A DNA stretch of 63,279 bases, filler included, from Sphacelaria rigidula (lineage: Eukaryota), in assembly GCA_964200075.2 (NCBI GenBank). It is 5 parts of 5 records of this genome, joined end to end, with 100 filler letters (N's around TTAATTAATTAA, not from the genome) between each part and the next. Parts side by side here need not be neighbours in the genome. Positions count along the whole stretch, not along the records: positions 50,707 to 63,279 come from CAXNAA020003614.1; 4 more parts are not named here. One strand, given 5' to 3'. Below are positions 1 through 63,279 of the stretch, piece by piece. A program made the translations under genes and the position numbers. The notes beneath the pieces were generated by a model. The model searched no databases, was not told the origin of the DNA, and saw only the letters and a program-made list of their open reading frames with translations. How positions within the stretch are numbered: position 1 is the stretch's first letter; each line of letters opens with the position of its first letter.

Positions 1-36
1 CTACTGCGGGGAATCAGGGAGACACTTTCCCCACTA

Positions 37-3000
37 GTGCGCGCGCTGGCCGTAATAGCCGTAGTCCACTACGTCTGGTTGATGTTCGGGAACTCATTAT
101 ACCCCCGGGCCACGTCGAACCTCGACAACACCGCTGAATCGTTTGGCGGAATCACCGATACTGATGATGGGACGGCTCTCGCAGGGCCCGCTCTTGACAA
201 GTGGACTGAGGGTAGCAATAGCCATGCCAGTGTCATGGTAGACAATGGTGCGTCGGGACATTACTTCGACGACGACGTGGAGAGCGACCGGTATTTTTTC
301 TCTCTGGAACTAAGCAGCGGCAACGACGCATCTGGACTGGCTATGCAAGCTGCAGACACCGCCACGCTGTGGCATCGGAGGATGGGACACTTGAACAGCA
401 ATAGTTTGAATCTTCTCAAAAACCTCGAAAGCAACGGTGTGGATTTCGGTGGAGCCGTTCTGGACTGTGATATTTGTGCTGTTGGGAAAAGTCATCAACT
501 GGCCCACCCGAAGACAGCCAAAAACAAAGTGCAACGCGTTTTTCAACTAGTCATGACAGATCTGATGGGACCGATCATGCCGGAGGCGCTGGGAGGCTTC
601 AAGTACGTCTGCAAGATCTCCAATGAGTATACCAGATGGACAGAGATATACCTCCAGAAGATCAAGGACGGCACCCTTCATGCATTTCAGTCCTACGTAC
701 AGTCAATGGTCATTCCTGGCGGTGTTCGGGTGGAACGACTAAGGCCCGACAAAGGCGCGGCCTATCTTGCAAACAGATCACCGCATTCGGCGCTTGACAT
801 GCAGTCGCCTCATAAGATGCTGAAGGGGACAGAACCGGATCTCAAACACCTGCGAGTCGTCGGAGCCAGGGCTTTCGTACATATCGAGCGGCATATATCG
901 AAAATTGCTCTCAAAGCAGTTGAAGGACGACTACTTGGGTACAGTAATAGCAGTAAGAGCTACCGAGTCTACAACCCGGCCACGCGCCGTATCATTGAGA
1001 GCAGAAAGGTCGTCTTCATCGAGACTCCGACACACCTTACCCCGACGGGAGAGCCGCAACTTCGGATACACCCACTTTCACTTGGTGACCAGGACTCCAG
1101 CAACAGAGAGGGCCACAATTACGTCACCGACGACGACTTCTTCCGTGATCTTCGCGATCACACCTCCGTACTAGCTTAAGCGGCTCACGCCTTCGTTGGT
1201 CATATCACTGCCAGCGGGATCTCTGACGATCCACAGGTGGCCGAGCTTCTGGAGAGAATCAGCGTCATCACCAAGCGGGACATGCTACACGACGATGACA
1301 CACCTCGTGGAGAGATGTCGTCAAAAGTATCACCGGAGAGCCGTGTGCCGCTGGAAAAAACTGCACCCCCTTCTCGGGACGAACTCAGCCAGTCCACATC
1401 ATCAGCCGAATCACCACTGCTCAACCGCTCTCGACACTCTCGCCGTCAAGTAACTCCCGCCGTGACGCGCGCAGGTATTGCAGCGCGCTCCTTCAGGGAA
1501 CTCAGCACCAACAACGACGGCGCAGCTTTTGCGCACCTTTGAGCCACTGTGGACGACGAAATGCTCTCCGAGCTACGGCGACTGCAAATGCACACCAACG
1601 CGCTCCTACAAAATGTCGTGCACCAGAGGTTTGGGGCGGAATCAGTCGTGGAGTATGCCTACACAACTACCAACCTCTCGAGCTGTTCAGTGGGGGAGAA
1701 AATCGAGAGAATCCCAAACACGTTCAATGAAGCCATGAGTCTCCCCGAAAAGGAACAGTGGAAGGCAGCATCAGATAAGGAGATGGATGGCCTAAGAAGG
1801 AACAACGTGTATACTCTAGTGCCGTCAAGCTCCGTCCCAACTGGACACAGGTTAATCGGGTCCCGATGGGTGTGCAAGAAGAAAGCGGATTCCTCGCACA
1901 AGGCCCGAGTCGTCGTGCAGGGTTGGGGACAAGTCCCTGGCGTCGACTGTGGCAGCACTCTCGCACGGTCTGCAGGATCCAAAGCATCCGCATGGTATTA
2001 GCTGTAGCGGCGGAGTATGACTTGGAGTGTTGTCAATTGGAGTATAATATCGCCTTTCTGAACGCCGAACTCAAGGAAGAAGTTTACGTCAAAATGGCGC
2101 CAGATACGAGGAGTTTGACGCCAATGGAACTCCGATGGTAATGCGGCTCCACAAAAGTCTCTATGGCCTCCGTCAAAGTCCAAATTACTGGTGGGGAACG
2201 GTCGACACACATCTGGCGGAGATTGGATTCAAGAGTCTTAAGTCGGACCCTTGAGTGTACATGTACCAAGAGAGCGGCGGCGACGTCTACATTTTGACTT
2301 TATACGTCGATGTTGTCCTACTGCTTGGGAAATATGTCAAAGTGCTGGAAGGATCAAGCATAAACTGATGGGACGTTTCTCGATGACGGACATAGAATAT
2401 GTATCGTTAGTGCTGGGGATGGAGGTTGTTCGTGATTGCGTTAGAAAGACAGTCACCATCAGCCAGAAACGTTACACCAAGTCCCTCCTGGAACGATACG
2501 GGATGGCGAATTGCAACCCAGCATACACTCGTGGTGTGGGACAAGAACTGTCACTGGATCAGCCAAGGGAGAAAGCTTTGAACGAGGAGGACAAAAAGCG
2601 TTTGCAGGCCATTGCGGGCAGTGTGATGTATCTCGCTCACGTGACATGCTACGACATTGGATACGGCGTAAATCAACTGGCGCGGGCGATGTCCAATCCG
2701 TCGAAGGCGCATATGGCAGCTGCAAAACACTTCCTTCGATATTTGGCCGGCACTACAGATCATGTCATAACCTACAACCAGGGCGGTTTCCAATTGACGG
2801 CGTTCTCAGATGCGAACTGGGGTAACAACCCAGACAACGGTAAACCCACATCATCATATCTTATCTTTCTCTCGAATGGACCCATCAGTTTTAAGGTAGG
2901 ACTACAAGGACTCACCGCGCAATCGACGATGGAAGCAGAACTCGTGGCCGCTGCACTCACCAAGTAGGAAGGCGTATTTTGCTCGAATATGATGCGGGAG

Positions 3001-12579: not shown

Positions 12580-12679
12580 NNNNNNNNNNNNNNNNNNNNN
12601 NNNNNNNNNNNNNNNNNNNNNNNTTAATTAATTAANNNNNNNNNNNNNNNNNNNNNNNNNNNNNNNNNNNNNNNNNNNN
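12580..12679. other. Artificial contig linker N44-TTAATTAATTAA-N44
   Basis: 100-nt spacer; the 12-mer (12624-12635) puts stops in all six frames. Identical at four places. Confidence 0.98.
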
Positions 12680-25255: not shown

Positions 25256-25355
25256 NNNNNNNNNNNNNNNNNNNNNNNNNNNNNNNNNNNNNNNNNNNNT
25301 TAATTAATTAANNNNNNNNNNNNNNNNNNNNNNNNNNNNNNNNNNNNNNNNNNNN
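25256..25355. other. Artificial contig linker
   Basis: N44-TTAATTAATTAA-N44. Confidence 0.98.
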
Positions 25356-37931: not shown

Positions 37932-38031
37932 NNNNNNNNNNNNNNNNNNNNNNNNNNNNNNNNNNNNNNNNNNNNTTAATTAATTAANNNNNNNNNNNNN
38001 NNNNNNNNNNNNNNNNNNNNNNNNNNNNNNN
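37932..38031. other. Artificial contig linker
   Basis: N44-TTAATTAATTAA-N44. Confidence 0.98.
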
Positions 38032-38099: not shown

Positions 38100-40443
38100 T
38101 TACGAGTAAATACAGCCGACGGTTGTATACTTGTCTGCCAAGCTTGTGCCTTGGGCTGCACACTGTGCTCCTGCATTATACTGCCGCTTGCTCATCATTA
38201 CATCGCCCACCCCGTCACCTACTCCCGGAACGATCTTACAGTCCGGGGGCAGAGTTGCAACGCGTTCCTGCCGGCGTGATGCCATTTTGATACACTGGGC
38301 ATCACGACGACCGATATCCATGCGTGAAAAAAAATGTGCTATTGTGCTAGTGTTCCAAGGCCGCCGCTAGCAAGCCCCAAAAGCCGGGACTGCTGCCCCA
38401 ACCGAATTCTAGACACAGATCGACGACCGCCATATCACCAAACACGTACCCGAAATAAGCGGCCCGTGCTGGGTTCACCAACACCTGGCGAAATGCTTCC
38501 TTGACATCAATTTCACTCAGCACAATGCGGGCCGCGGGGCAAAATTTCTGTCGCAAGAACAAAATCCGCATCAGAACTTTACGCAGCACTCCACCGATGT
38601 CACACGGCGATGCCTGCAAAACGTCTGTGTCCGCATTAACACTGGTATGCGGCGCTCAACGGGGCGAAAAGGTGAGATCATGTATGATACGAAATTTGGG
38701 GTGCACCGCCACCCCAAGCGGGGACACACGAAATAGTTTGATATCGAAGATCCGTCTCACGTCGAATACCAGTGCGCGACCGTTGATAACATCCAGGCGC
38801 AGCTTTTCATATGTACGGTTCTGGTGCTCATCCACCCCACTTTGGTTCCCATGGTTAATCGCACTGACCAAAACACCCCCAGGTTGGACATCAACTGGTA
38901 CACCCCGTTCTAGCACCTTTGCCAACAGAGTGATATCCGGGAAACCCTTGAGGTCACCAAACCAACGACGAACACCTTGAACATCTACCTGCGATCCGAA
39001 AAATTCTCGTCCTACTCGGTTCACGAAAACTTCAACACTGCCGTCACACGCGTGCAGCATGGCCGAGCCTATATCTGCAATGCGGGTAAGGTGCGCTATC
39101 GCCTGCGTCCCCGTCAAGTCACGCAACTGCTCAACCGAGGATTTCCACCTCTTACTGCAGCATTGAAAATGATCATCATCACACACATCCAACATACCAA
39201 AATCACAGTTCGCCATGGAACCTGGCACCAGCACCTCACTCTCGCATCCGCCTTGCTACCGTCCCAGAGCGGCGCGTGCTAAGCCCCGTAACCCCATTCT
39301 ATTTTGGCATGTACCCATCCCGACTATCCTGTCCTGGGTTGGCCCCGCCTCAAGGCGAACCCCGCCCCCCTAGTCCGACCTTCCTGCACGCGCCGCCGTA
39401 CCATTGCCACCGCGGGAACCCCCGTCCTCACTAGAAGCTCCCCCGCCGTCATTGCTCCCGTCGGCAATCCGAACTCGCGGCCCCGATGCCTGCGTGGTCG
39501 GGGCCCGACTGCTGCCGCTGGTCCCGGGAACAGGGACCCCGGTGTCGGAGGTGCGGGTCCCACCGGACCGGCCGGCACCACTGCTGCCACTACCGGTGGC
39601 GGCGCTGGAGTTGCCATCGCCTCCCGATTGTGGCACGTCATGACTGAACCTGCATCTGTCCTCCCACCGACAGTGTCCGTAGTCCAGGAAAACGAAGCAC
39701 GGCTGGCTCCGCCGCACTCGCTCGGCCGCCGATGACCCGCTGTCTCCGGCTGCGGTGCCCCAATTCCCCGCAACCCGGTTGCCAGAGCTCGATCCACCCC
39801 CCCCCCCCCCCCCAGCGGTGGCGCTTCCTGAGCCCCTCCCTTCCGACGCGTCAACGTACCCCGCTCTCACCATTCGCACAGCGTTGCCCCCGGTCTCGAT
39901 GAACGAGTATAGCTAAGGAAAGGCGGGAACAGGCGAAGGAGGGAGAACGCCGACCGACGGTGGCGGCGAACAATTATTCGCGAACAAGTGCTGCGACCCC
40001 TGTGCCAAGGCATCAGACCACTTGCCGAGGTCAGAGTTGGTGATGAGGGTCGTGGTATCAGTACCCGCGTGCTGCGTCATCATATCGAAGTGAGAGTTGG
40101 TGTACGACCGAAGATCGGAGGTCATCTTCGCAAAGGCTGCCGTAAGCGCCTTCACCCGGCCGGCACACATCGCGTCCTCTGCCCCGGACCGCGCTCCCAG
40201 ACCGGCACCCAGCAAGCGCCGAAAGGCTTCACCCATCAGACCCAAACGATCCGGCAGGGATATCTTGTCGCTCGAACCAGATCCCGCCGCACCGTGCGGC
40301 ATGGTTGCTGCAACGTCAAGTAGAGAGATAGTGCGGAACATGCTCGCTACCTTCGAAGAGGCATGTATCATAGCACCCAGGACCCCCTGCAACTCAGGTG
40401 GACTGAATGATGTGCCGGCGGTTTGCCGGTGAGGAGCCACCAC
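38100..40443 (-). mobile_element. DIRS/Ngaro-type (tyrosine-recombinase class) retrotransposon remnant: gag-like ORF with CCCH finger + RT
   Basis: C-x8-C-x5-C-x3-H (CFVFLDYGHCRWEDRCRFSH, 39699-39640). RT motifs RVSPLGVAVHPKFRIIHDLTF, IDVKEAFRQVLV, VVDLCLEFGWGSSPGFW are typical of DIRS/Ngaro RTs. Stops at 38656 and 38347. Confidence 0.82.
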
Positions 40444-42720: not shown

Positions 42721-45700
42721 GCACCCCCCAAAGCACATTGGACGAAAATCGATCGACAAGCTTGACACATAGAAAACGCCAAGACGATGAGTACGTCACA
42801 ACTGAATACCAAACTCACGCATAATGCGAGCAACAACGGCACAAGTCACGCGCAATTGACGCAACCCCTTCGTGAGAAATTCCGGAGCGGCCTCAAAATT
42901 ATCCTTGAAAGGCTCGCACGTACGCTCCTCAACGTCGAAACCAACCCAGTCGACCAACACGATCAACGAACGATCGTCTGCTTCTGCCACTCGGACAATA
43001 CCAGCCATAGGAAACTGCCCCTGATCGAAAGCATGTTGGGACACGTCCTTAACGTCATCCGTAACATTAAGCTGCGAGTCTACATCAAAACGCAAACGAG
43101 CTACATGGGCGGTCTGAACACGAGCTGAAACAATGTTTTAGATCTCACACACGTGTGGGTAGTGAGCCCCAACTACTCTCCACGGACGAGTCCACGTCGC
43201 CATCAACTTGGGCGTAACGCCCGGACGACGCACGCGTGCATACAAGACATAGTCGCCTACCTCGAGATTCGACAGTTTCAGCTCCGACTACCCCTCACGT
43301 CTACGCGCACGTTCAACGGCAGCACACTCCTGCACTTGAACGTGGGAACGTTCTTGCAAGTCCAAGACTCCTTGCAATACACACCTGATTTGATCATCAT
43401 CCAAGACATCACAATTCCGTTCCCCCGCCGACGAAGACGCCAACACCGGGAAATACGTCCGAGGAGCACGACCAAACATCACGTGGTACGGCGTACTATC
43501 GTTACGACGACGATACGCTATATTTAGCGCCCATTGCACCGCAGGCAACACGTCCACCCACTCGGATTCCGCTCTACGCCGCTCAAGAAGAATAGAGCAA
43601 AGAGCACGGACGACTTCCTTGACCATGCGTTCGCACGTACCGTCAGACTACGGAGAATACGCCACCGCAAACTGGTGATCAACGCGCAAAGCCTCTCGCA
43701 ATCGGGCCAAGATCGCATGCTTGAAATGCGTGGCGGTATCACTCACCCACACACGCGTCATCCCCAACGTTTTGCACCAATTTAGCAAAGACGCAGCAGT
43801 CTATTCAGCAGTACACACTGCTACAGGTTCCAGAGACACGAAGTTGCTCCAATCATCCATGATTACCAAAATGTATCTGAACCCAGCATCCTCCGACAAA
43901 TCTTGGGAAGCTAGCGGGCCACTCTCGCCCACGTATAAGAAGTCAAAATAAACGACTTCATTCGGCATGGTCCCATGGATCGCTTCAACGAGTGGGCGGG
44001 GAACAACATCGCCCACTCTCGAGTCAGCACAGTGAAGACACTGGCGGGCAAATTCGCGCACATGAATTTCTATTCCCTGCAAGACACAAACGCTTGTAAG
44101 CGCACGAGTGTCGCAGCCACACCACGATGCCCGGCGTCGCGCATGTGCGCGCAAATCATCAGACGTACCTGCAACTGCTTGTCAGAACTCGGGATCCACG
44201 ATACGTTTTGGACACGAACATGCACACGAAACAGACCTACGTTGTCCAAAATAGCAGTTTCAACGTCCGACTCGAAAGATTGCACATCCGCATCTTCGGC
44301 CCCAAGTTATTTCCGTTGCGCTTGGCAGACAACAGACTTGGACGGCATCGAGTCATCAGATTCACACGGACCATACATAGCCACAGCACGCACAGGCAAA
44401 GCCGGGATATTCACCCAACGCGAAAGCAAGTCACCGCACGCGTTACGGTCACCGGAACTATGGCAAATCGAGTGATGATACTGGCCAAGAACACCTTTCC
44501 ATCCCTCCAAACGTTGTGCCAATGCCTTCGACACAGACGTAACGCACGCTTCCGGGGTGAAAATATATACGAGATTTAGGTGACCCGTGAAAATGTGCAC
44601 GCCACCATCCCACAAAAGATGCTCCAAATGATGAAAAGTGCTCATAATAGCAAAACCTTCCTTGTTAATTGTGGCCCAGCGCAACTGCGAACCCTTGAAA
44701 TTGCCACTGAGGAAAGCCAGCGGCTCATGCGTCACATCCTCGACCGGCAAGCGTCGTCGCATTTCAACTTCAGGCACCTGCGTGACAAAAGTACCCCAAT
44801 GGAACTCAGATGCATCCGGAAACATTGACACCTGATAATCAGGACGAGGATGGAACAGCGTCACGGCATGAGCCACCAGATCCTTCACTGCCGCCCACGC
44901 CTGCAGCCCGCCCTCCGTCCACGATGCAGGAAGAATAGACCGGGTTTTTGCCACACGCTTCGTCCGCCTCACAGCAGTCGTCGTAAGGTTTTCGAGGCGA
45001 ACGCGAGGGAGCTAGGATTTCTGCCATACGCAGCGACGAGGTACACAGCCAATTCATGGTCTGAAGGAATTGCACGAGTTCTGCGGCCGTCTCCGGGCGC
45101 CGCATGTCAGACAAGCCTTCAATTTGACAGGGTCGTGAGATACGCGTTCATGTGAGTACACTTTCCCACACCACACGAGTTCACTTGCGAAAAAGGTACA
45201 CTTGTGCGCAGCCGCAAAGAAAACAACACTCTCTAAACGAGCACTCAACAGATCAAGCATATTTGACCCTTTGTTGGGCATCACACCCGGTGACTTCTAA
45301 TCCTGCTCATTCACGACCTTGTAGTTGCTCACCAGGCGAAACGAGTCCTTTTTTGGAATCGCCATAGCTGGACTGGACCACACCGCCTGCAAGTTCTGGA
45401 ACACCAACCGGAGCGCCAAAAGAGCCGCCATACACGACGCCAACCAACTCGACTTCACCGGATCGTACTGCCGCGGCTTTGTCTTCACCGAGGTTTCAGC
45501 TGAACACGCATGGGCTCCACGCGCAGGGGGATCACCCCGCAGCGCACGACGAAATACGATGATGCGGCGATGCAAGATGCCGCGCAGGCGCTCCGTGTTT
45601 GAGACGCTGAGACCTTTCGCCACAGCATCCGTCACGCTCTCCTCCAGCGCGACCTTCCGAGCGGACCCCTTCCACCGGATCCATAGACATCTCCGGGTCG

Positions 45701-50606: not shown

Positions 50607-50706
50607 NNNNNNNNNNNNNNNNNNNNNNNNNNNNNNNNNNNNNNNNNNNNTTAATTAATTAANNNNNNNNNNNNNNNNNNNNNNNNNNNNNNNNNNNNNN
50701 NNNNNN
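50607..50706. other. Artificial contig linker
   Basis: N44-TTAATTAATTAA-N44. A separate N10 gap lies at 50308-50317. Confidence 0.98.
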
Positions 50707-50774
50707 GGCTTTGGCGTGGCGGGGAGGGGGGGGGGTGGGGGGGGTGGGGTGGGGTGGAGGGGGCGCAATGTGGC

Positions 50775-50806
<32 letters not shown>

Positions 50807-51953
50807 ACAGGTTTGAGGTAGGGATTGCGGTTTTTATTCATCCTGTACTCATATTTTTGTTCCATCATTGCATCGGCTTTTTTCATTCAGACCCGCAGTC
50901 GAGAGTAACTCAGGAGGACAACATTGTTCCATCCCTCGGAAATGATAACCATACTCACGATGACAAAATCTGCGTCATGAAGGGGGCGAGGGGGGGGGAT
51001 GTACGAAGACAGGAGTAGTTGAAGGTGGAGCACTTCTGCGGACTGTAGATACAAGGTGAAAATAAATTAAGCCAGCATCGAGAGAGGCACCCATGAATGC
51101 ATCGAACATACGGCAAATCTCAGGGTACTACAATTAAAAGTCCACACTAAGGAACACATGGGTGAAGCGCGTTCAACCCGGGTTACGACGCGATATCGAA
51201 TTCAACCTCGACTTCGGCACCAATTTATTTCTTCAATGGCCCCCTAGGTGGGATCACCGAAAAGATGCGAAGAACAAACTACCAACGGTCGGATGAATGA
51301 ATGATTCGTCTGGAAATGACTTGATTTCAGCTGAATCGTACCGTACGAATCAATCCTTACGCTCTGCTTTCAGCGTTGCAACCCAGGTACGCGCAGCCGA
51401 GGCATGTGGATGGGCGCAAAAATTGTGTGGAGACCTTCTTGACCAGCGGTCAACTTTTTCCTTCTCTTTTGAGCAATCGTGCCTGAAAAATCGCGGATTC
51501 GGTGCTCCAAACTGGCGATGATTCGTCCGAACCGTGCAAACTATTTTCGATTGAACAAATATATGCATGATTCAGAGGTTGGCGACCCTCTTCGCCATCT
51601 TGTCTTGGAAAAAAAATAAAAGAGAGAGACAATTTTTGTGCTTGCGCGCAAAATGGAACATTGGCTCCATATCCGTAGTCAGTATAAAAAATGATCAAAT
51701 GACGGGATGTACTCATGATCTTGCACGCCGCACAAGGCCGGGACGGAGCACGCTGGGTTCCCGCCGGACCAGGAATTACGAGGGGTGGGGGTGGGGGGGT
51801 TGGGGGGGCAATAACATTAGATGGCAAGAGAAGAAGAACCGCTCCATGCGCGACAGTACAGTACAGGGGGAGAGATGGGTGGATTCCTTGACAGTACGGG
51901 CTCGTCCCGAGAAAGGAGACCGTCTAAAAATAGGACAGAAGAACATATATTTT

Positions 51954-53449
51954 TTAAAGTACGGTTCTCACTCCCTGCTCCCCCGTAAGCCCATACGCGC
52001 GAGCACAGGCGGACTCAACCTGTACAGTGTCCACCCCCGACCAAGCATGGAGTCCCACCTTTGTTCCTTCGCTCAGGTCCGCGTCGGCTCTTCGTCCTTC
52101 GGAAGACAACTTGCTCACGTCCTTCCGACTTCCCTCTCCCCTTTTCTGACCACCCCCCTTCCTCTTGCCCTTGCTCTTGTTCGTCCTCTTGACACCAGCA
52201 CTACCACTACTACTCTTGCTCCGCGACTGCGGAGCGGCGGCGTCGCTGCCACTTGCCACGGTCTCAACAGTGCGCCCACCACCGTCGCCGGCCACACCAC
52301 TAGCTTGACCCTTGTTCCTCACAGCTGCCGGAACACTTTCTCCCGTTCCTCCGGCGCTGGCGCTGCTGCCCGTCGCCGCAATATCCCCGGCCACCGACAA
52401 AGCTCGCGCAGGTGCTACTCGCGCATCCTCTAGCCCCCCTCGTTCTTCTCGCATTTGCGCCGCCGCCGCCGCCGCCTGCGCCTTTTCTCGGTCGCTTGTT
52501 TCCAGATCCATGTTTTGTATCCCTCCCACTACAGTCTTATGCCCATTCCCGTGCCCATTTCGAGCCATCCCATTCCCGCTCGTAGTAGTGGCGACAACTG
52601 TGGACTGCGTCTCCGCTCGTAGCTCCGTGGCCGCCGCTGAAACTCCAACCGAGCCTGCTCGGTATTCATTCTCGACGCTCTTGGCAGTAGTAGCTCCGCC
52701 GGTGCCATTTCCGCCTGCAGTACCAGCCCTTGGTCCAGCAACACAAGGCTGCGCTACGTCTACCCCAACGCCCCTGGCGCTAGCGTGGCCAGGCTTGGAT
52801 ACGCCAGACTCGGCTATACCCCCCGGAACAGCACCGGGTCCATGAGCCGCCGCCGTCACTTCTGCTGACGGGTGCTGCCGGCCTTCACTTCCCTCGCGGG
52901 TGGCGGCCGTTAAGTCACCTTCCCGTCCGTCATCCAGTCGCGCTCCTCCCCCCCTTCCGTCCCGCCGGCTCCGCGCAGCAGTGGCAGCAGTAGCACCAAC
53001 AACAACGACATCCTGCGATCTTCCTCTACTCTCACCACTTGCACCACCATCACTATCATGACTACTAAACTCACTGCTACCACCACTAGATTCACTACCG
53101 CTGCTGCTGCTGCTGCCGCTCGTATCAGAGGACTCTCCAGTGTCGGTACCACTATCACCACCCCCGTCACTCCCGCGCGCCCCCCGCTTCACAACCGCTG
53201 CCGTTGCCGGCGCCGCCGTCTGCAACCGCTCAGGATGATGGCGATCATTATAATATCCAGGGTCCTTTGAGAGGGGCGATCGACCTTCAGCAGATTGGCG
53301 AGACGGTGCTGACGACTCGGCGGCGGCAGCTAAGGCGGCCCCGACCCCCTCGAACAGCAGACGTAGCGGACGCGCGGCGTGTGGCAGGAGCAGCATCAGC
53401 TGGTCGTAGTCATACAGGCGGCGTCCCTCGAGCCCGACTAGGTAGTCGC
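51954..53449 (-). CDS. ArfGAP/PDZ-like protein, exon F: end of PDZ-like domain + long Ser/Gly/Ala-rich region (3' end uncertain)
   Basis: CAG acceptor (AG 53451-53450), phase 1 completes Gly: (G)DYLVGLEGRRLYDYDQLMLLLPHAARPLRLLF. The frame is open to the stop at 51954, but a likely donor AAG|GTGGGA at 52059 may lead to further exons. Confidence 0.8.
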
Positions 53450-54576
53450 CTGGGCGATCGTTGGCGCACGCACGCCGCCGAGAGGATAGGGGGAAATGGG
53501 AGGTGCGTTGAGGCGCCAAACGCGGTGAAGTCACACGAAACAACAGATCATGCTCACGCCGCTTCTTGTAGGCTGAAAAAAGTCACTGAGAAAAGTCGTT
53601 TCGGTCAGTTTCCAGAGTTTTTTTTTTCAGAACGCGACCTTGTAGGACCATTTTTCATTCAAAAAGTCTCTGGAAACTGACGGACGTTTCTAAACAGCGC
53701 GATTTTCCCAAATATCTTTGGGAAAATATTATCCAGTTCCCAGAGATTTTTCTGTCTGCGAATTGACGTTCCATCATACACTCATCGCACACCGCACCCA
53801 CAATGGTACAGTCAGTGCCCCATCACACACTCCTCGCATACAAGTGTAGTACAGCCAGTACAAAAGTAGCTGTGCATGTTGTATGTACAGTACCGTGGCA
53901 ACAGCATAGCTTCTGCAGCACTCCGTGCATCCTCTTCATGACCGTATGACTAGGGACAGGCAGTACAGTACAGTGCTTTTTCGCCGGCAGCGTTACTACC
54001 ATCAAATAGAACGATGTCGCCCCTACTGGCTGTATTGACTGCTCGTATCGCTTTATGCCCGTCGTGCCCGCCACCGATTGCAAACTCTGTAGTATACTGA
54101 GACGGTTGCTACCACACTACTGACTGTCACATGAGTTTGTCGTGTGCGGTATGGCACAAGCCGTACTGCTGCACACTGCACCGCTTGCGACACTACTACT
54201 GTACCAATCGGCGGTCGGCTGAAGTAAGGGTTGATACGCCTGTCATTTCGATCCCTACAACACCAGTAGCTACTGTGTGGGTGTGTTGCCATCTCATCTA
54301 TCCTGCACCTGGACGGGATTATTTACGCGTTAGTTCACCGCAGGTGGCACAAGCATAAAATGCAAATGATGACCACCACCACCGTCTGCACGCAGGCTAG
54401 ATGATGACCTCGGGTGTACAAATCCCCAGATTATAAGGTGAGGTTTTGAAAACTGACTAGTCTGAAAAAAGTCACTGAGTAGAGTCGTCCGCCCGAACTT
54501 TTTTCAGTGACTTTTTTCACTCCATAAAAAGCGGCCTCAACAAAAAAGTTGAACAAAGAGATGACTACAACAAGTG

Positions 54577-54579
<3 letters not shown>

Positions 54580-54614
<35 letters not shown>
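54580..54614. repeat. (GA)n microsatellite
   Basis: Direct reading. Confidence 0.95.
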
Positions 54615-54617
<3 letters not shown>

Positions 54618-54846
54618 GTGCTAGCTTGCTTGCTTGCTCGCTTGTTCGCTGCACGGCTGTCCTCGATCCTGGTAGCGTCACTCTAGAATAGCACTATACA
54701 ATCGTGTGTGTCGCGCTCTCTGTGCCCCACCTGTTCGTTCGCTCAAATAATCTGCAACGAATAACTCAACGAGCCACATGCAGAGCGCGGCGTGTCATGG
54801 ATATACGCCCACATCTCGTTTGCGGGCATCCCGGTTTCTAACACAC

Positions 54847-54961
54847 CTGTTCGGACCCCTAGGCGGAAGGCGACCCCGCCAGGGGCCAGGCGGGTAACCA
54901 GCGCCCGGTTTACTCCATCCTTCATGAGAGTGAATCCCATCCCACCAGGTCCGAACACAAC
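54847..54961 (-). CDS. ArfGAP/PDZ-like protein, exon E (PDZ-like core)
   Basis: TAG acceptor (AG 54963-54962), ACAG|GTGTGT donor, phase 0/1. VVFGPGGMGFTLMKDGVNRALVTRLAPGGVAFRLGVRTG (GMGF equivalent to the GLGF loop). Confidence 0.85.
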
Positions 54962-55190
54962 CTAAGAGTAGTAGCAGCAGCAGCGCACACCACGCCAGGG
55001 TATAGTGCACGGTCAACACGCCAACAGCGATACGTGAGAAAATATTACCATGGTGGGTCAAAAGTGCTGTTCGCCCCTTCGCATGTCACCGGTGCATGTT
55101 GAGGGTTGCCGAAATCATCTTGTGCATACAGTACAAGGGCTTGCGGGCGGGACAGACAAGTTTTTCCTCACTTTTTCGTAAATTCATCCG

Positions 55191-55506
55191 TAGAGCTCGG
55201 AAATGGTTTGTCTAACCATCAACCAGTTAAATGGTACATAATGGTTTGGTCATCGAGCGGCGAAGCCGCGAGCCGAAAAGCCCCCCCCCCGGCAGAGGGG
55301 GCCCCGCCGGAGGCGCCCCCAGAGGGCCCCACGCGAGGCGCCGTACCGGAGGCACGTTTGTACGCGATTTGGTTTCACTAGAGCTAACAAATGCGCGTGC
55401 TGTACGTAAATTACATAGCCGGTAACGGTAGATAATGGTTTGAAACCATTGTCCGAAAGTCTCGTATAAGCATTACCGTTATAACTGGTACCGTTTCCGA
55501 GCTCTA
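55191..55506. mobile_element. Old hAT-like MITE in intron
   Basis: TIR TAGAGCTCGGAAA(T/C)GGT / ACCGTTTCCGAGCTCTA. 8-bp flanks TTCATCCG / TTAACCAG (5/8). Confidence 0.65.
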
Positions 55507-56187
55507 TTAACCAGCGAAAGAACACTACGTACCCTCCCACGCAACATAGGCTATATACCGCGGGCGCTGTGTCGGTGCTCTATCGTAGAGGCTAGCTTTA
55601 TGGATGTACGGCAGTAGTGTGGGGAGGCACACACAGCTTGCGAGTTCTGGAGAAAGCGAGTCTCTTCTTCGGGCACCAGACAGCTAGTCGTTCGTCGTGA
55701 CGAATGATCTCTCGTGGACGTTGTCTACGGAAATACACTTACGGAACCTCAGGAACGTCAGGACTTTCAGGAACGTGTTCCCCGCAACGAGTACCAAACG
55801 TAGGGTGTAACATCTTTCATTCTGCCTCGACTGCGGTACCAAATTAACCAAAAATAGTCCAACATGCGGGCGGAATACAGCTATCAACAGAAGATGTTTG
55901 TTTCATTATTCAAATGAAGTTACCGCTACTTCACGTGACAGAGGTCAAAACATTGAGCGTAGAAACCCCCCTTTTCCCCCGGCCCCCCACCCCAAAAAGA
56001 TGATGACAACTACTACATAACGATGATGGTGACCAGCATCCACTACATATTTTCGAACATTGCCAGAAACTGCGGTGAGAAGCAGACACACAAAAAAATT
56101 CATGACAGCTACATGAATGTCTACGTAGCTCCAATTTAAAAAGAATTAAAAAATGACCATCATGACCTCATAGACAAGCGCACGCAC

Positions 56188-56430
56188 CTCGTATTCTCCG
56201 TTTCCGCAGCTCCGCGCCTTCGCGAATCCGGCGGCACTGCTCAGTTCCATCACTGCTGCTGATGCCATCGCCGTCGACGGAGGAGAAGGAGGAGTTGGAT
56301 TTTTAGAAAAAGAAGCTACGCCGCTAGATGGCGAAGCCGGCAATCGGCGTGATTCCCTCTTGCTACGATTACCCTTGCGGCTCGCCTTCGCTGCCTTCAG
56401 TTTTTTCGCCGCTGCTTTGGCCTCTGCTTT
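56188..56430 (-). CDS. ArfGAP/PDZ-like protein, exon D (Lys/Ala-rich linker)
   Basis: CAG acceptor, GAG|GTGCGT donor, phase 0/0, 81 codons: KAEAKAAAKKLKAAKASRK...CGNGEYE. Confidence 0.8.
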
Positions 56431-56951
56431 CTGTTTGGTGGGGCGCGCGGGAAGATGGGGAGACGAGGAGACAGATGCGGGGGGCGGGGGGGGGAGCGGA
56501 GGGGGCAAGTCAGGAGAGAGGGGGGGAAGAGGGCTTGATTCTGAAAATATGTATAGAGAGACAAAAATGCTTCTGTCTTCGTGCGAGTTTGTTATCCTAG
56601 TGAACATCGAGTTTGCGGTGATAACAGGGCGCCTCATCACCATGTTTGTTTTTGCAAAATCTCAAACTGCAGGGGCCAAATGACACGAAAAGGGTGGGGG
56701 CAAAAAATACAAAACACGAGGGGGGCAGAAGCATTTTAAAAAATCCCGAATATTAATTATTGTATTTTCTATTTCTTCCATCATTATATGTCTTGGCCCC
56801 CGGGATGATCCCCGCCTCTCCCTCCTCAGCATGATGATACTGCGATTAATCGTCAACGATGAACTGTAAAAACTTTTATGTTGACCTACTCGTCTTTGCA
56901 TCGCTGTCATGTACTGCTGCGGAGCTCGACCCGCCACCCGTGGTCGTTCAC

Positions 56952-57090
56952 CTCTCGTCGAAGATCAGCGGCGGCCGCGGCTTCCGCTGCGGCAAAGATC
57001 TTCCCTGCACCAAATCCGCGAGGGCTAACACCCGCAAACTGCCCACCCGATTTTTCCAATTGGTCGTCCGCAGCGGCTCGAAGGTTGTCG
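56952..57090 (-). CDS. ArfGAP/PDZ-like protein, exon C (end of ArfGAP helix)
   Basis: CAG acceptor (AG 57092-57091), phase 2 completes Arg: (R)DNLRAAADDQLEK...DLRRE, then GAG|GTGAAC donor. Confidence 0.75.
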
Positions 57091-57625
57091 CTGTGGATCC
57101 CCGATGTTCGGCCGAAACGCGGGGGGGCGGGGGGGGGGGAATGAAACCAAGGAGGAATGAGAAGGGGAGAGAGAACAAGACCAGCAAAACCACAAAGTGT
57201 AACCGATCAATACAAACACCCGCACCCACACGTTGACAAGACAGACAGATCCAGGGCAGATCAGAAAGAAACGTGAAATATTGCGGCGTTAGTGGATTGT
57301 TCTAGAACACGCTCTAGGATGATCTGTGCCACCTATTAGGTGCCGGTTCACTCGCCACGAAGACGAAGCCTCCTGGCCGCTCGCTCTGTTTGTTTTTGGT
57401 CCCTGCCAGAAATGGAACACTGTACGTGGCCGCCACGGGGTCAATTTCACGGCGACAAACAAAAGCGATGTGCGCTCTTTTCTCGTGTGTGAGTGTGTGT
57501 CATGCGCGTGTGCAGAACACGCTGCACAAACCTGATATCGCAGATCTGTCTTACTTACAGGGTACGGACGCCTACTTAAAAACGTGAAAATCTGAACACT
57601 TTTTATTCAAATATTATTTAGTTAC

Positions 57626-57771
57626 CGGTACAGCGTCGAGGCCTTCGTGCGGTATTTCATCTCCAGCTGGCTGTTCTCAGTGTGACACTTGGCGAACCAC
57701 GCTCTCAGCTGGGCGTTTCCTCCGAGCTCCATTCTCATGATCTGACCCGGATCCCATCTATCCATAGTCAG
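57626..57771 (-). CDS. ArfGAP/PDZ-like protein, exon B (ArfGAP domain C-half)
   Basis: CAG acceptor, CG|GTAAC donor. LTMDRWDPGQIMRMELGGNAQLRAWF...KYRTKASTLYR matches the ArfGAP S.T.D.W...M..GGN...KY motif. Confidence 0.92.
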
Positions 57772-57858
57772 CTGCGACAAAAATACAAATATACATACGT
57801 GCATACATTCAAGGATCGGTGGTAGTTTTTTTTAATGCGGGGGCGCCATTTAAAAAAA

Positions 57859-57931
57859 AGGAAAAAGGAAACAGGAAACAGGAAACAGGAAACAGGAAAC
57901 AGGAAAAAGGAAACAGGAAACAGGAAAAAGG
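57859..57931. repeat. (GGAAACA)n heptamer repeat
   Basis: Direct reading. Confidence 0.9.
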
Positions 57932-58773
57932 TGGGGGTAGGTGGCAAAGGGCCTGTCACGCTAGCCTCCCGAGCAAAAGGGGGATAGTACAGTACATGCA
58001 CACCTACAGTAACAAGCTAAGCGGGATTGGTCTTGACGTGATATTTCATCAGCTTCCCCCCCCCCTTTCGTGAGTGAGGAGGGCAAGGGTTTAAATGAGC
58101 ATTAACATAATTAAAAGCAGGAGGGTCGTACAGAATGATTCCCCGATGGGAGGGGTGGGGTCGAATGGAGCCAAAATAACCCGACCGCCGCGACGGTGCT
58201 ATTGTTCTCGCCTTATCGACAGATACCGCAAATATTGTGAGGAACAGGGGAACACGTGAAGAGTGTCTAAGATATATATCAGGAAGCGGCACTTGTGTAT
58301 TAAATATAGTCACACACACCCTGGACAATAGAAAACACGGTAAAAAAATGTACTGCGTACAGTATCGACCATTGCGCATATTGCAATAGACAATAGATTC
58401 TCTACTGTACGCGGTACATTTTTTTACAATAGAATCCATCGTCCAGGGTGTGAAGTTAGTGCATGCGTACTGCAACCAAAATTCCGGCATGATACTGGTC
58501 GATCGACGATCGTTGACACCGAGATCAATATCCAGAGGTCAAAGCGAATTCTTGATCGCCCCGGAGTTCACTCATAAGCCTCGACACGAAGCGTACATGT
58601 ATGGTCGTGATATCTACCGCGGGTCGCCGTCGTTTTTGTCCCGGGAAGCGTGTGTGCTTCAGTTGATTTACAGATAATAAATGTTTGTAACAATTTGCTT
58701 CTACAATGTGGTTCCTTGTTCGTAAAACCTGCTCCGCCCCTCTTTTCCCCTACACACCGTGTGAAATATTCCA

Positions 58774-59108
58774 CAGGTATCATAGGTAAGGTAGGTACCA
58801 TGTACCGGTATTTGGGACATTTCACACCCTACCGATACCGGTTCAATCGGGTATTGTCAAAATCCATGCCTACGATACCCATGATACCACGGTATTTCGA
58901 GATACCAGTACCTACCGTACCCGCTCGATCGGGTATTTTCAAATGTCGTCGGTACCTACGATACCACGGCGTTTCGATATTTCAATACCTACCGTACCCG
59001 CTCAATCAGGTTTATTAAAACTCATACCCACGATACCCACGCATACCATGGTATGGGATACCCCTGCAAATACCGGGGGTATACCCGGTAAATACCGGAC
59101 GCGATGCA
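58774..59108 (+). repeat. Intronic repeat element with internal tandem units, copy 1
   Basis: GATACCACGGTATTTCGAGATA..GTACCTACCGTACCCGC..ATCGGGTATTTTCAAATGTC units; colinear with 60477-60880. Confidence 0.85.
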
Positions 59109-60476
59109 CCCCCCACGGTGCAGCAGCCGGTCCCAACTTGCGCAAAAGCCACAAGTTTTCGGAGCAAGTACGACTTGTTTTCACAAGCAATACATACCCA
59201 CAATCTCCCTGATTTTCGGTTTGGATCAATTCGAATGAACATTTCAATATGTAGTCTGATGTTCTTAGTAAATGGACATAAATGTTGGGTATATCATCAT
59301 TACGATGCTATACTTGTTTCATCATTTATGTCGAAGATGAGCATCATACACAAAAATATTACACGTGCAAACGAGCAGAGAGAAAAAAACGAACAGGAGG
59401 AAAAGTAACAACAAAAAAACGAGGGGCCGCAGGAGGCATACAAACAACAAGGTACCAACATACCAATTGAATAACCTTGGATATATACATATACATGCCG
59501 TATATACTGCGCCATTGTCGGGTGCTCTAAATGAAAAAATACAACTACAGGAGAGGCAAACCCTGCTCTTGCGTACTACTGCGCGTGCTCTTACTTACCA
59601 CTGCAATACCTTAGTGCCACAAAGTATGAAGCTATCTCCTCGAAATGAACATCGAACCATCCAATTTCAACTTTGCACTTACTGCTGCTCTATTTTCAGA
59701 TTGCTTCAGTCTCTGCACCCACGTCAACAACCACGAAGATCACCACGCGGTACTCATGATCGATCCATGGATTGGGTGTCTCACCCTGCCAGCTGATTGC
59801 AACGATCCAGCTGATGCTCAGGGCGAAGAGTAAAAAAAACAAGAAAAAGCATGCAAACGCCCGAGAGCAACAACGAAAAATAATCCCTCGTATTAGGCGT
59901 GGAGACAAGAAAAAAAAGTGGAAAAAAAGCCAAATAATATGCTACTAGCATCGCTATAACAGCACGGGCGCAGGCATGTAGCATGGTGCATCAGCTGCCA
60001 CTCACGCCCTGAATCTCGTTCTCTCCCTCGCTAAGATGAGGGGTCGTCCATCATGTCCATTGGGGTCGCTGCGCGAGTGGGATCGATGAAGTCGTCGGCC
60101 CCGCGCAGCTCAGGATCGGCCCCGGTGAAACGCTTAGGGATGAATGATGTTACTGATGCGGTGGTGAAAATAGGCATCACTACAGGTATCTTGGCGAAGG
60201 TGAGGTGAAGGAACAGCAACATTTCAACGTAGAATCGTCGAGGCGGCTTCTCCAGCTGGACAGAAGCTGCCCCGCGCCACCGAAGTCACGCTTGATCTAT
60301 GATGCAGAAGCTTGGTTACCGAACGTCTGCTACGCTACACTGCGCAAGTCTGTGAAGTGAAGCTTCCCCTGGCGCGCCCCACCCCTTGTGCGTTGTGTGC
60401 GGGTGGGAATGGGACTGCCCATCTTGCACAGCAAGCTGAAACGCTTCTACGCACTGCCGGATGACAGTTTTGGAAT

Positions 60477-60880
60477 CGGTATAAAGGGTAAGGCAGGTAC
60501 CCGGTACTGGTATTTGGAACATCTCACACCCTACCGATATCGGTCCAATCGGATATTTTCAATAGTTACACCTACGATACCCATGATACCACGGTATTTC
60601 GAGAGACAGTACTTGCCGTACTCGCCAAATCGGGTATTTTCAAATGTCATACCTACGATACCTACGATACCACGGTATTTCGAGATAACAGTACCTACCG
60701 TACCCGCCCAATCGGGTATTTTCAAATGTCATACCTACGATACCTACGATACCACGGTATTTCGAGATAGCAGTACCTACCGTACCGGCTCCATCAGGTA
60801 TGTTCAAAGCTCATACCCACGATACCCACGCATACCGCGGTATTGGATACCCCTGTAAATACCGGGGGTACGCTCGGTAC
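60477..60880 (+). repeat. Intronic repeat element with internal 82-bp tandem units, copy 2, followed by (CAA)n at ~60882-60914
   Basis: CAAATGTCAT at 60641 and 60723 (period 82); one more unit than copy 1. Confidence 0.85.
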
Positions 60881-61453
60881 GACAACAACAACAACAACGA
60901 CAACAACAACAACAAGATGCAGTCATGCGTAACACGTGAAGATGCACTTGCTCTGATTCCTGTGACGAGGATGGTTTTACCCCATTTTGGTTCCCCGAAT
61001 CCATGGTCGACACATTTTAAAAATAACACGATCCCTATCGCTAAGCCTCACCCTAAGCCTCACCCCAACCCGAGGCATACCGAAAACCCTCGGGCAGGGG
61101 GGGTGCAAAGTGTTCCCCAGGCAAAGTGTGCGTTGCCATACCTCAAATCGTCGCCGCAGGCGCCAATTTAGACAAAAAAGCATCCTGCGCACGCCAGGAA
61201 CACAGTCCCCATTCAAAATCCGGATGTCACGGTCCACACCAAAACCAAGTCGGGCCAACTTCACCCTACCAAGCGGGAAACTCTACTGCGCTCGGGACTG
61301 TATGCCCCACCAGATATCTGAATCTCGGTGTTGACACTAATATCAAGAATGTTCCACCCATGGGCTCTTGGGGAGCCGAACTGGGGTAAACTCTACTGCC
61401 CGTGACTGACCATCCAACCGTCGTCATATCCACGCACACACCATCTCCCTCAC

Positions 61454-61577
61454 CGATTTGATAACCGTGATGTGAGTGCCGAGGCTGCGATGCCTGCCGG
61501 CGCACTGGACGCACAGCAAGATACCGTACGTCGCACCCCCCCAGCTTGTCTCCGGCTGGCCACAATCCATGCAAACG
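61454..61577 (-). CDS. ArfGAP/PDZ-like protein, exon A (ArfGAP zinc finger); upstream exons not found in window
   Basis: Not listed in this frame in the ORF track. VCMDCGQPETSWGGATYGILLCVQCAGRHRSLGTHITVIKS = C-x2-C-x16-C-x2-C-x4-R. CAG acceptor, TCG|GTGAG donor, in phase with exon B. Confidence 0.93.
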
Positions 61578-63279
61578 CTGCTTTAAGGGAAAAAAAAAAA
61601 GAAGCGAGACGGAAATAGAAAGTTTAGAAAAGACAAGGGAGAAAGACGGTCTTTGTTTCACCAAGTCATTGGGTTGACGGTGTAGCATGTGCTCCACAGA
61701 TACACACACACACAACTCAAACACACACATGGCTTTGGTGAGCTCCAGACGGACACGATAGCTTCATAGCTCGGGAGGGGCACAAATTGAAAATAACAAG
61801 GCATTGCTTGCTGCGCGGTGAGCCGTGCTGTGAATACGGACGCATACTGCGGCGCACTTGTTGCGGTGTCTAACTAACCCCTGCAGACATGAAACAGAGA
61901 GTACATGTATTGCGAGTACGGCGGACTACTACGCTGCCTCAGCGCCTGTTCTCTTTCCACAGCCACTACTAAAATGTATGTACCAACAGACGCGGGCTTC
62001 CAAAGTAGCGTATTCCGGTCGAGTCTCAAAACCCACTATCAAGTATGCTACTGTATTTTACAACACGTGTATAAAATAGTGTAGTGTCTCTAATTGAGCG
62101 CCATTCTTCACGTTAGATTTTTATCATCTCGTTCTTTCGTGATCTGAGGCGTGGCTTGATCTTTTTGATCGCCAGGGTGAATTATTTGTTGAATCGGCAC
62201 CACTTCCACTTGAAAGTGAATGTAAGCCCTCGACGATCCACCCCGGCAGTCAAAGAGTTGAAAAAAATAAGCTCGATCCAAATCCGACATCGAAGGTGAC
62301 CACGGTTCCGCGATTGGCCCGCTGCCCCGAACCGCAACAAAACTGATTTTGAATTCCCTGAGCACTAAGATATCTCTACACTTGCCAGAAATCGAAAATA
62401 ACCCGATTTACACAAAGGCGGCATAAAAAAGTGTGAAGAGAAACATAGAGGCAGGCCCCGTGCAATCGTCGAGGTCTAGATATGTCGATGACCTATGTTC
62501 CTCCGCGTATGGTATTGACTCAGGTCAGTTAATTGAGATTTGGGTTGTTCGTTCGGCAAATACTTCGACGTCTTGTTTGGACCCAACCCGCCTTACCAGA
62601 TTGTTTTCTTTTTACTCCGATTTCGATTGTTTTTCGCTGACACAATCGCCTGGTTTCACTTTCTTTTCGGCCCCTAGCCTGACCCTGTCGACGTCATACC
62701 TCATTTCGTAACAATGCTACCGCCTGCCAGTTTCTCAAAACAGGGTGGGGGTGGAGGGGTGTACTTTTTTGTTGTTTGTCTAAGTCGTTTGACCATCGAC
62801 CACGCATCCCTTTCGAGACGGAGCACCGTTCCTACTCCCGATAGAGATACCTCCAACATTTGGATGCTCATTGCGTTTCTCCCACACATCACATCGGGGG
62901 AAGACGGGGGGGAATGTACTCATGATCTTGCATGCCATAGTCGTGTGGCCATTGATGTCGTATCCCTACAGAGCCGGGACGGAGCATGCCGGATGTCGCC
63001 GGACCAGGCTCGCAGTCAATCACCAAACGCGGAACGCCGTAATGTGTTCGGCGAGTCGCATGAGGAGTGAGCTGCATCCTGCTACGATTGTTCGGCCTGA
63101 AGAGGACTGATCATCTTGCACGTGGATGAGCATCGAATGGGTTGTTTCATTTTCTGGTATACCCACTCCCAGAGACAGCCACGGCTTACACACATCGGGG
63201 GGGGGGGGGGGGGGGGGGGGGATCCCTTTTTTTTTTTTGCTTTTGGTGTGTGCCCCCTGAAACCCAACCCCCGAGCTGG

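What the first reader, a model, noticed from the sequence alone, without database searches (positions are those of the whole stretch)
51954..61577. ArfGAP-PDZ-like fusion protein reconstructed from six phase-compatible exons
Seen: exons 61577-61454, 57771-57626, 57090-56952, 56430-56188, 54961-54847 and 53449 onward join in frame by GT-AG introns. They give an intact ArfGAP (C4 zinc finger + catalytic Arg), a basic Lys/Ala helix, a PDZ-like domain (YEVVFGPGGMGFTL..ALVTRLAPGGVAFRLGVRTGDYLVGLEG..PLRLLF) split over three exons, and >400 aa of low-complexity sequence. Known: described ArfGAP subfamilies pair with PH, BAR, ANK, C2, SH3 or RhoGAP domains; PDZ is not a standard partner. Inference: a lineage-specific trafficking regulator coupling Arf inactivation to C-terminal-peptide cargo or scaffold recognition. 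This is the best candidate for an undescribed system here.
Basis: partly seen in the sequence, partly recalled or inferred. Interest (0 to 1): 0.7.

Follow-up and report, generated by a model that had tools for sequence, protein, structure and literature searches.

The report
Stramenopile ArfGAP with tandem PDZ domains
These six exons are the middle of a real brown-algal gene that joins an off-switch for Arf trafficking GTPases to three PDZ peptide-binding domains; the combination is shared with other algae and water moulds, and I found no paper describing it, but its function is untested.

Summary
The six exons are real and join in frame; a deposited partial protein from Sphacelaria rigidula matches the join letter for letter. 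The model is incomplete: the last 34 codons are intron read-through, and the first exon, PDZ2 and the end of PDZ3 lie on three other contigs. Six full-length brown-algal orthologues read ArfGAP-PDZ1-low complexity-Tudor-like-PDZ2-PDZ3. Two intron-free metagenomic ORFs carry ArfGAP plus three PDZ, so the fusion does not depend on splice inference. PDZ1 folds as a PDZ. Named relatives include a pelagophyte, a chrysophyte and oomycetes, so it is not brown-alga-specific. The GAP domain is ArfGAP1/2/3-type with catalytic residues invariant; its placement within that group is unresolved (AU p 0.187). ALPS-like helices are mostly missing. PDZ1/2 have Tyr and PDZ3 His at alphaB1, predicting class III and class I tails. 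Best reading (0.55): an Arf1 GAP targeted by partner tails rather than membrane curvature; untested. Ten paper searches found no description; the key 2013 survey was unreadable. An unchecked earlier scan note reports an ArfGAP-PDZ gene in a dinoflagellate.

The parts
61454..61577 (-). Exon: C4 zinc finger, conserved Trp and arginine finger (codon 61489-61487) of the ArfGAP domain. First base completes a Ser codon begun on the upstream exon on G000:C2426 (GC donor, phase 2)
57626..57771 (-). Exon: second half of the ArfGAP domain (conserved Asp-x-Trp, GGN, closing helices)
56952..57090 (-). Exon: last GAP helix, linker and start of a conserved Ala-rich helix
56188..56430 (-). Exon: basic Lys/Ala helix (P0007 121-165: 15 K/R, 5 D/E), linker, first strand of PDZ1
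54847..54961 (-). Exon: PDZ1 carboxylate-binding loop (G-M-G-F, 54943-54932), betaB, betaC, alphaA
53343..53449 (-). Start of the long exon: C-terminal part of PDZ1; alphaB1 Tyr at 53408-53406 (P0007 Y268)
52059..53342 (-). Rest of the long exon: about 427 aa Gly/Ala/Ser-rich disordered region, ending at the first residues of the Tudor-like domain and a GT donor at 52058
51954..52058 (-).

Best explanation
A catalytically intact Arf GTPase-activating protein of the ArfGAP1/2/3 type, conserved across ochrophyte algae and with a two-PDZ form in oomycetes, that is brought to its membrane by PDZ binding to C-terminal tails of membrane or scaffold proteins rather than by an ALPS curvature sensor. 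Shown: one gene product ArfGAP-PDZ1-disordered-(Tudor-like)-PDZ2-PDZ3; invariant catalytic residues; PDZ folds with intact loops. Inferred from family rules: substrate is Arf1-GTP; PDZ1 and PDZ2 (Tyr at alphaB1) prefer D/E-x-hydrophobic tails and PDZ3 (His) prefers S/T-x-hydrophobic tails. Inferred, untested: PDZ1 next to the GAP domain docks it on a cargo or receptor tail, the long linker lets PDZ2/PDZ3 tether a second partner, so Arf1 is switched off, and coats released or cargo sorted, where those partners gather (Golgi or endosome). The basic helix may add electrostatic membrane contact.
For: Join equals deposited protein; same architecture in 6 full-length brown-algal proteins; intron-free ORFs with ArfGAP + 3 PDZ on two metagenome contigs. 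Among 42 family rows every aligned residue is Cys at the four Zn ligands (26, 30, 31, 31 rows; rest gaps in fragments), Trp 31, Arg 31, Asp 33 of 34. PDZ1 pLDDT about 95 and Foldseek PDZ matches at rmsd 2.3-2.8 A; PDZ2/PDZ3 of P0022 Z 11-12.7. Hydrophobic-Gly-hydrophobic loop in 38 of 42 first PDZ (4 gapped), 26 of 28 middle, 16 of 16 last; alphaB1 Tyr in 36 of 42 first (Phe 5), 24 of 28 middle, His in 16 of 16 last; class rules from PMC4704001 and PMC2891790 (passages). ALPS-like helix (my own scan, moment >= 0.40) in 35 of 42 plain ArfGAP1-type proteins but 3 of 16 three-PDZ members and 0 of 6 brown-algal ones. ArfGAPs are commonly targeted by binding partners (PMC6724607, passages).
Against: No activity, ligand, localisation or expression data. 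alphaB1 class rules are approximate (PMC2891790 says the classification has been challenged). The basic residue that usually precedes the carboxylate loop is missing in PDZ1 of the window protein (sequence). 3 of 16 three-PDZ members do have an ALPS-like helix, and 5 of 6 brown-algal members keep a GFG motif found in 28 of 121 plain ArfGAP rows, so ArfGAP1-style targeting is not excluded. The oomycete second PDZ has Pro at alphaB1 and a Cys in the loop. The joining of the four contigs into one gene in this genome rests on orthology only; their ends do not overlap.
Confidence: 0.55

Rival explanations
1. It is simply the ArfGAP1 of these algae: a Golgi COPI regulator recruited through coatomer, with PDZ and Tudor-like domains accreted as secondary add-ons.
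For: A family profile scores human ArfGAP1 best (124.7 bits); the family lies outside the 99/99 ArfGAP2/3 branch, among ArfGAP1-type rows; only four ArfGAP loci were found in the own genome and none is a plain ArfGAP1; a Globisporangium member is named 'gcs1' and the Atlas cluster 'AGD6' by automatic naming.
Against: The margin over ArfGAP2 is 1.6 bits and one member scores ArfGAP3 best; a sister position to ArfGAP2/3 is not rejected (p-AU 0.187); plain ArfGAP1-type proteins with ALPS-like helices sit beside the family in the tree, though their organisms are unnamed; the genome has 27214 contigs and searches are lower bounds; PDZ pocket residues are strongly conserved.
Confidence: 0.25
2. It is mainly a multi-PDZ scaffold (plasma membrane, flagellar base or endosome) whose PDZ domains bind lipids, internal motifs or each other; the GAP domain serves as an Arf-GTP-binding anchor or local terminator and is not gated by cargo tails.
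For: Up to three PDZ domains, a Tudor-like barrel and 400-500 disordered residues make most of the protein; PDZ domains can bind lipids and internal sequences (PMC2891790, PMC4704001, passages).
Against: Conserved, class-typical alphaB1 residues and loops point to canonical C-terminal binding; compact members keep GAP and three PDZ but drop the linker and Tudor-like domain.
Confidence: 0.17
3. The fusion is an artefact of joining exons from neighbouring genes.
For: No junction reads were seen; one intron inside the GAP domain is 3682 nt.
Against: Orthologues in six other brown algae, and single intron-free ORFs holding ArfGAP and three PDZ.
Confidence: 0.02

Closest known systems
ArfGAP1 (human ARFGAP1, PDB 3dwd/3o47; yeast Gcs1 and plant AGD6/7 named from recall)
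   Same: N-terminal GAP domain of the same type; best PDB sequence match of the family profile (E 4.4e-35); tree side shared with ArfGAP1-type rows; GFG motif in 5 of 6 brown-algal members.
   Different: PDZ x3 and a Tudor-like domain follow the GAP domain; ALPS-like helix absent in 13 of 16 three-PDZ members by my scan; 480-1340 aa.
ArfGAP2/3 (human ARFGAP2/ZNF289, ARFGAP3; yeast Glo3; PDB 2p57, 2crw, 5nzs, 7jtz)
   Same: GAP domain nearly as similar (123.1 and 122.1 bits; top Foldseek hits); a basic helix follows the GAP domain.
   Different: Excluded from the ArfGAP2/3 clade (99/99), which holds another gene of this genome (C16980); BoCCS and Glo3 motif not tested.
The described ArfGAP subfamilies (ArfGAP1, ArfGAP2/3, SMAP, AGFG, ACAP, ArfGAPC2, ADAP, AGAP, ASAP, ARAP, GIT)
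   Same: Shared catalytic domain with arginine finger (PMC6724607 passages).
   Different: That review has 0 occurrences of 'PDZ'; no PH, BAR, ANK or C2 domain was found by Pfam in 8 brown-algal or closest members.
Canonical PDZ domains (ZASP, PDLIM5/7, Scribble, NHERF1, INAD PDZ3; class III exemplified by nNOS, class I by PSD-95)
   Same: Fold, loop and alphaB1 residue types.
   Different: About 15-30% identity; found in one chain with an ArfGAP domain; ligands unknown.

Membership tests
ArfGAP domain (PF01412) | Pfam score over the curated cut-off | tested here: met
   P0007 76.9 bits, cut-off 28.7
ArfGAP domain (PF01412) | C-x2-C-x16-C-x2-C-x4-R zinc finger with arginine finger (consensus recalled; role of Arg from PMC6724607) | tested here: met
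   Read in exon 61577-61454; Arg in 31 of 31 aligned family rows, 11 further rows gapped
ArfGAP domain (PF01412) | Stimulates GTP hydrolysis on an Arf | not testable with these tools
   needs an assay
PDZ domain | PDZ fold | tested here: met
   AlphaFold2 pLDDT 93-97 over residues 211-290; Foldseek PDZ hits, e.g. 4ydp_A E 2e-4, rmsd 2.4 over 81 columns. Pfam on the window protein alone is under the cut-off (PDZ_6 17.3 of 27 bits)
PDZ domain | x-hydrophobic-Gly-hydrophobic carboxylate loop | tested here: met
   G-M-G-F in the window protein; 38 of 42 first PDZ, 4 gapped; the upstream R/K of the long motif is absent in the window protein
PDZ domain | Binds C-terminal peptides | not testable with these tools
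   needs a peptide screen
ArfGAP1 subfamily | GAP domain groups inside ArfGAP1 | tested here: inconclusive
   Outside ArfGAP2/3 in both trees, but backbone open and family+ArfGAP2/3 not rejected, p-AU 0.187
ArfGAP1 subfamily | ALPS amphipathic helix after the GAP domain | tested here: not met
   Own helical-moment scan: 0 of 6 full-length brown-algal orthologues and none in the window's part (0.12) reach 0.40, against 35 of 42 plain ArfGAP1-type rows; 3 of 16 three-PDZ members do. Threshold is mine; the species' own C-terminal half was not scanned
ArfGAP1 subfamily | Binds coatomer / acts at the Golgi | not testable with these tools
   needs cell biology
ArfGAP2/3 subfamily | GAP domain groups inside ArfGAP2/3 | tested here: not met
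   9 ArfGAP2/3-type rows form one side of a 99/99 branch without any of 17 PDZ rows (clade anchored)
ArfGAP2/3 subfamily | BoCCS region and Glo3 regulatory motif | not tested
   no profile at hand
ArfGAPC2, ACAP, ASAP, AGAP, ARAP, ADAP, GIT | C2, PH, BAR, ANK or RhoGAP domains | tested here: not met
   None in Pfam scans at E <= 1 of 8 proteins
Tudor/Agenet domain (orthologues only; exon not in the window) | Five-strand Tudor barrel | tested here: inconclusive
   Five strands at pLDDT 93-96 in P0022 327-370; weak similarity (E 4e-5, 8e-6) to repeats that Pfam calls Agenet; Atlas feature scores 0.83-0.86, leads only; no Pfam hit on the domain itself; fold searches were filled by PDZ

The most novel reading that the evidence does not exclude
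Probability: 0.22. Interest if true: 0.72.

Novelty: new variant of a known kind. Interest (0 to 1): 0.45.

Why it matters
ArfGAP subfamilies are defined by the domains that aim the GAP activity, and the review consulted lists none with PDZ. A conserved ArfGAP-multi-PDZ protein in seaweeds, microalgae and oomycetes would add a lineage-specific subfamily and give a direct, cheap way to ask whether cargo tails can time Arf1 inactivation without an ALPS sensor; the conserved Tyr/Tyr/His pocket code predicts which tails to look for. The parts are all familiar and the pairing is already visible in automatic annotation, which limits the surprise.

Tried and rejected
Pfam on single exons finds no PDZ (0 of 4 PDZ-bearing pieces). 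The Tudor-like exon of this gene was not found in the own genome: whole-orthologue search (40 of 47 candidates scored), a 21-nt pattern (1 hit, a chance match; control 2 hits) and a 50-residue query (only the tandem-repeat ORF, E 0.05); exons for the start of PDZ3 were not found either. No end overlaps join C2426, C3614, C25381 and C18797. No plain ArfGAP1 found in the own genome; not proof of absence. A profile search with alignment A2 added no new family member. Idea that the conserved helix between PDZ2 and PDZ3 is a remnant ALPS: not supported in brown algae (moment 0.26-0.31). Single origin of all PDZ-bearing rows: support only 34/23 in the careful tree; the oomycete pair is a long branch. 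The AlphaFold model of the GAP domain is poor at its start (pLDDT 42-56) because P0007 lacks the first exon and first Cys. Schlacht et al. 2013 could not be read. No complex prediction was run: GAP with Arf is a textbook pair.
Full report
Setting. The window is a chain of contigs separated by N runs. The finding lies on G000:C3614 (12573 bp; window 50707-63279). A deposited partial protein, CAM9378145.1, named by its source as Sphacelaria rigidula and coming from a 12573-bp contig (P0007), identifies the organism as a brown alga.

Observation. The six exons have AG before and (for the first five) GT after, and their phases join into one frame of 753 codons and a stop. Introns are 3682, 535, 521, 1226 and 1397 nt. 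P0007 is itself a gene prediction, so it is agreement, not transcript proof; no junction reads were seen.

Corrections to the model. The last exon ends at 52059: P0007 stops there, a GT follows, and 6 of 6 unspliced ORF calls of this exon lose similarity right after the same G-x-K-V site. The first coding exon (21 codons plus two bases, 76% identical to the orthologues' N-terminus) is on C2426:12143-12207; it ends in a GC donor whose phase fits the first base of exon 61577. PDZ2 and the conserved linker are on C25381, and the second half of PDZ3 with the stop on C18797. These contigs are tied together by orthology only; their ends do not overlap, and the Tudor-like exon was not found.

The whole protein. 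Six full-length brown-algal proteins of 1102-1344 aa (Ascophyllum, Ectocarpus, Scytosiphon, Nemacystus, Undaria, Cladosiphon) and an unnamed 960-aa protein align as ArfGAP, basic helix, PDZ1, long low-complexity region, a 55-residue beta domain, PDZ2, a conserved linker, PDZ3. AlphaFold2 gives PDZ1 of the window protein pLDDT 93-97 and under 50 for most of what follows; Foldseek returns ArfGAP and PDZ structures. In the compact relative P0022 all three PDZ and the beta domain are modelled at pLDDT about 85-96, and PDZ2/PDZ3 reach Z 11-12.7. The beta domain is probably Tudor/Agenet-like, on weak evidence: similarity at E 4e-5 to 8e-6 to repeats in this genome that Pfam calls Agenet and Atlas scores of 0.83-0.86, with an unnamed viral cluster on top at 0.91.

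The fusion does not rest on splicing. Of 10 metagenome loci found with P0024, the two that I read whole are single ORFs of 554 and 561 codons with ArfGap and three PDZ stretches over the Pfam cut-offs.

Spread. A search of 1.84 billion representatives listed 150 of 7861 hits. Of 30 of these picked mostly for multiple matched stretches, 21 have both ArfGap and PDZ in Pfam. With profiles built from alignment A1, 48 of the 182 proteins held have both; 42 after dropping 6 same-cluster copies; 16 have three PDZ, 12 two, 14 one (many are fragments), 12 the Tudor-like domain (7 of them were in the profile). Of 10 clusters looked up, 3 carry organism names: Chrysophaeum taylorii, Epipyxis sp. and Globisporangium (their classes, pelagophyte, chrysophyte and oomycete, are from my own knowledge). 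An Atlas cluster of 64 members, mostly Oomycota, has ArfGap in 94% and PDZ in 89% (score 0.85, a lead). The oomycete form has two PDZ and no Tudor-like domain. An earlier, unchecked note of this scan mentions an ArfGAP-PDZ gene in a dinoflagellate; I could not test whether it is related, and a look-up by sequence found nothing.

Kinship of the GAP domain. The family profile matches ARFGAP1 (124.7 bits), ARFGAP2 (123.1) and ARFGAP3 (122.1) well above ACAP1 (86.7) and SMAP (76). In a quick tree of 139 domains all 29 PDZ-bearing rows fall in one 42-row group (SH-aLRT 89) among ArfGAP1-type rows (clades anchored); the 13 other rows of that group are mostly short fragments, two are ArfGAP-FYVE proteins. 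In a careful tree of 46 rows ArfGAP2/3 is a 99/99 clade holding another gene of this genome; 15 non-oomycete PDZ rows group at 85/87; adding the two oomycete-type rows has only 34/23. A sister position to ArfGAP2/3 is not rejected (p-AU 0.187). A Giardia preprint also notes that ArfGAP1 and 2 are hard to resolve (10.1101/2025.10.20.683495, passages). Four ArfGAP loci were found in the own genome, none a plain ArfGAP1, but the assembly is in 27214 pieces.

How it likely works. Shown: Zn ligands, Trp, Arg finger and Asp are invariant or nearly so in all aligned rows. The PDZ loops are intact. The first residue of helix B (register from the models: Y268 in P0007; Y242, Y507, H698 in P0022) is Tyr in 36 of 42 first and 24 of 28 middle PDZ, and His in 16 of 16 last PDZ. 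From the literature: Tyr marks class III (D/E-x-hydrophobic) and His class I (S/T-x-hydrophobic) (PMC4704001, passages), a rule that is approximate (PMC2891790, passages). ArfGAP1 is stimulated by an ALPS curvature sensor, and other ArfGAPs are targeted by protein partners (PMC6724607, passages). My own scan for uncharged, Ser/Thr/Gly-rich amphipathic 18-mers finds one at moment 0.40 or more in 35 of 42 plain ArfGAP1-type rows but 3 of 16 three-PDZ rows and no brown-algal one (threshold mine, set). Inferred: the protein turns off Arf1 where PDZ ligands gather, PDZ1 docking the GAP domain and PDZ2/PDZ3 tethering further partners over a long linker (0.55). Rivals: ArfGAP1 proper with accreted domains (0.25); a scaffold in which GAP gating by tails plays no part (0.17); artefact (0.02).

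Novelty. Ten full-text searches (one search was for PDZ classes) listed no paper that, by title or abstract start, describes an ArfGAP-PDZ protein; I saw only listings for most hits. The ARF review has no 'PDZ' in its main text; the brown-algal genomics preprint has no 'ArfGAP' or 'PDZ' in its main text (10.1101/2024.02.19.579948, passages; its supplements are closed and include composite-gene tables that may list this gene); the Blastocystis paper has no 'PDZ' (PMC5608401, passage). Schlacht et al. 2013, the survey most likely to have met these sequences, could not be read, and most subscription papers are not searched. The pairing is already visible in precomputed Pfam annotation. Verdict: a real, conserved, apparently undescribed variant of the ArfGAP1/2/3 kind built from known parts; interest 0.45.

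Noticed in passing
window N runs at 12580-12679, 25256-25355, 37932-38031, 50607-50706: The window is a chain of separate contigs of about 12.5 kb (C3609 first, C3614 last); neighbours across the N runs are not genomic neighbours.
   Followed up: yes
G000:C2426:12207/12208 (L027): The first intron of the gene has a GC donor (GC-AG intron), with a phase that fits the exon at window 61577.
   Followed up: partly
window 1-2964 (+): Retrotransposon remnant broken by stops: gag pre-integrase, retroviral SH3-like and weak RVT_2 matches, Copia-like.
   Followed up: partly
window 39373-39912 and 44310-45011 (-): CCCH zinc finger (under cut-off) and RT-RNase H matches in interrupted frames; likely a decayed Gypsy-type element.
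   Followed up: partly
window 58776-59090 and 60478-60879: Two copies (85-89% alike) of an element with internal units of about 80 nt inside the long intron; similar sequence at the end of contig C18797.
   Followed up: partly
window 53551-54542 and 58315-58452: Intronic inverted repeats: 46-nt arms 900 nt apart and 50-nt arms 38 nt apart, MITE-like.
   Followed up: no
G000:C5818, C3767, C1530: Single open frames of 1468-2025 codons; the one scanned (C5818) is a tandem array of Agenet/Tudor-like repeats, and all three weakly match the Tudor-like domain of the ArfGAP-PDZ orthologues.
   Followed up: partly
proteins P0084, P0168: ArfGAP-FYVE proteins (one with WW) group with the PDZ-bearing ArfGAPs in the quick tree; organisms unnamed.
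   Followed up: no
proteins P0037, P0038, P0041, P0088: Proteins with two ArfGAP domains in one chain; organisms unnamed.
   Followed up: no
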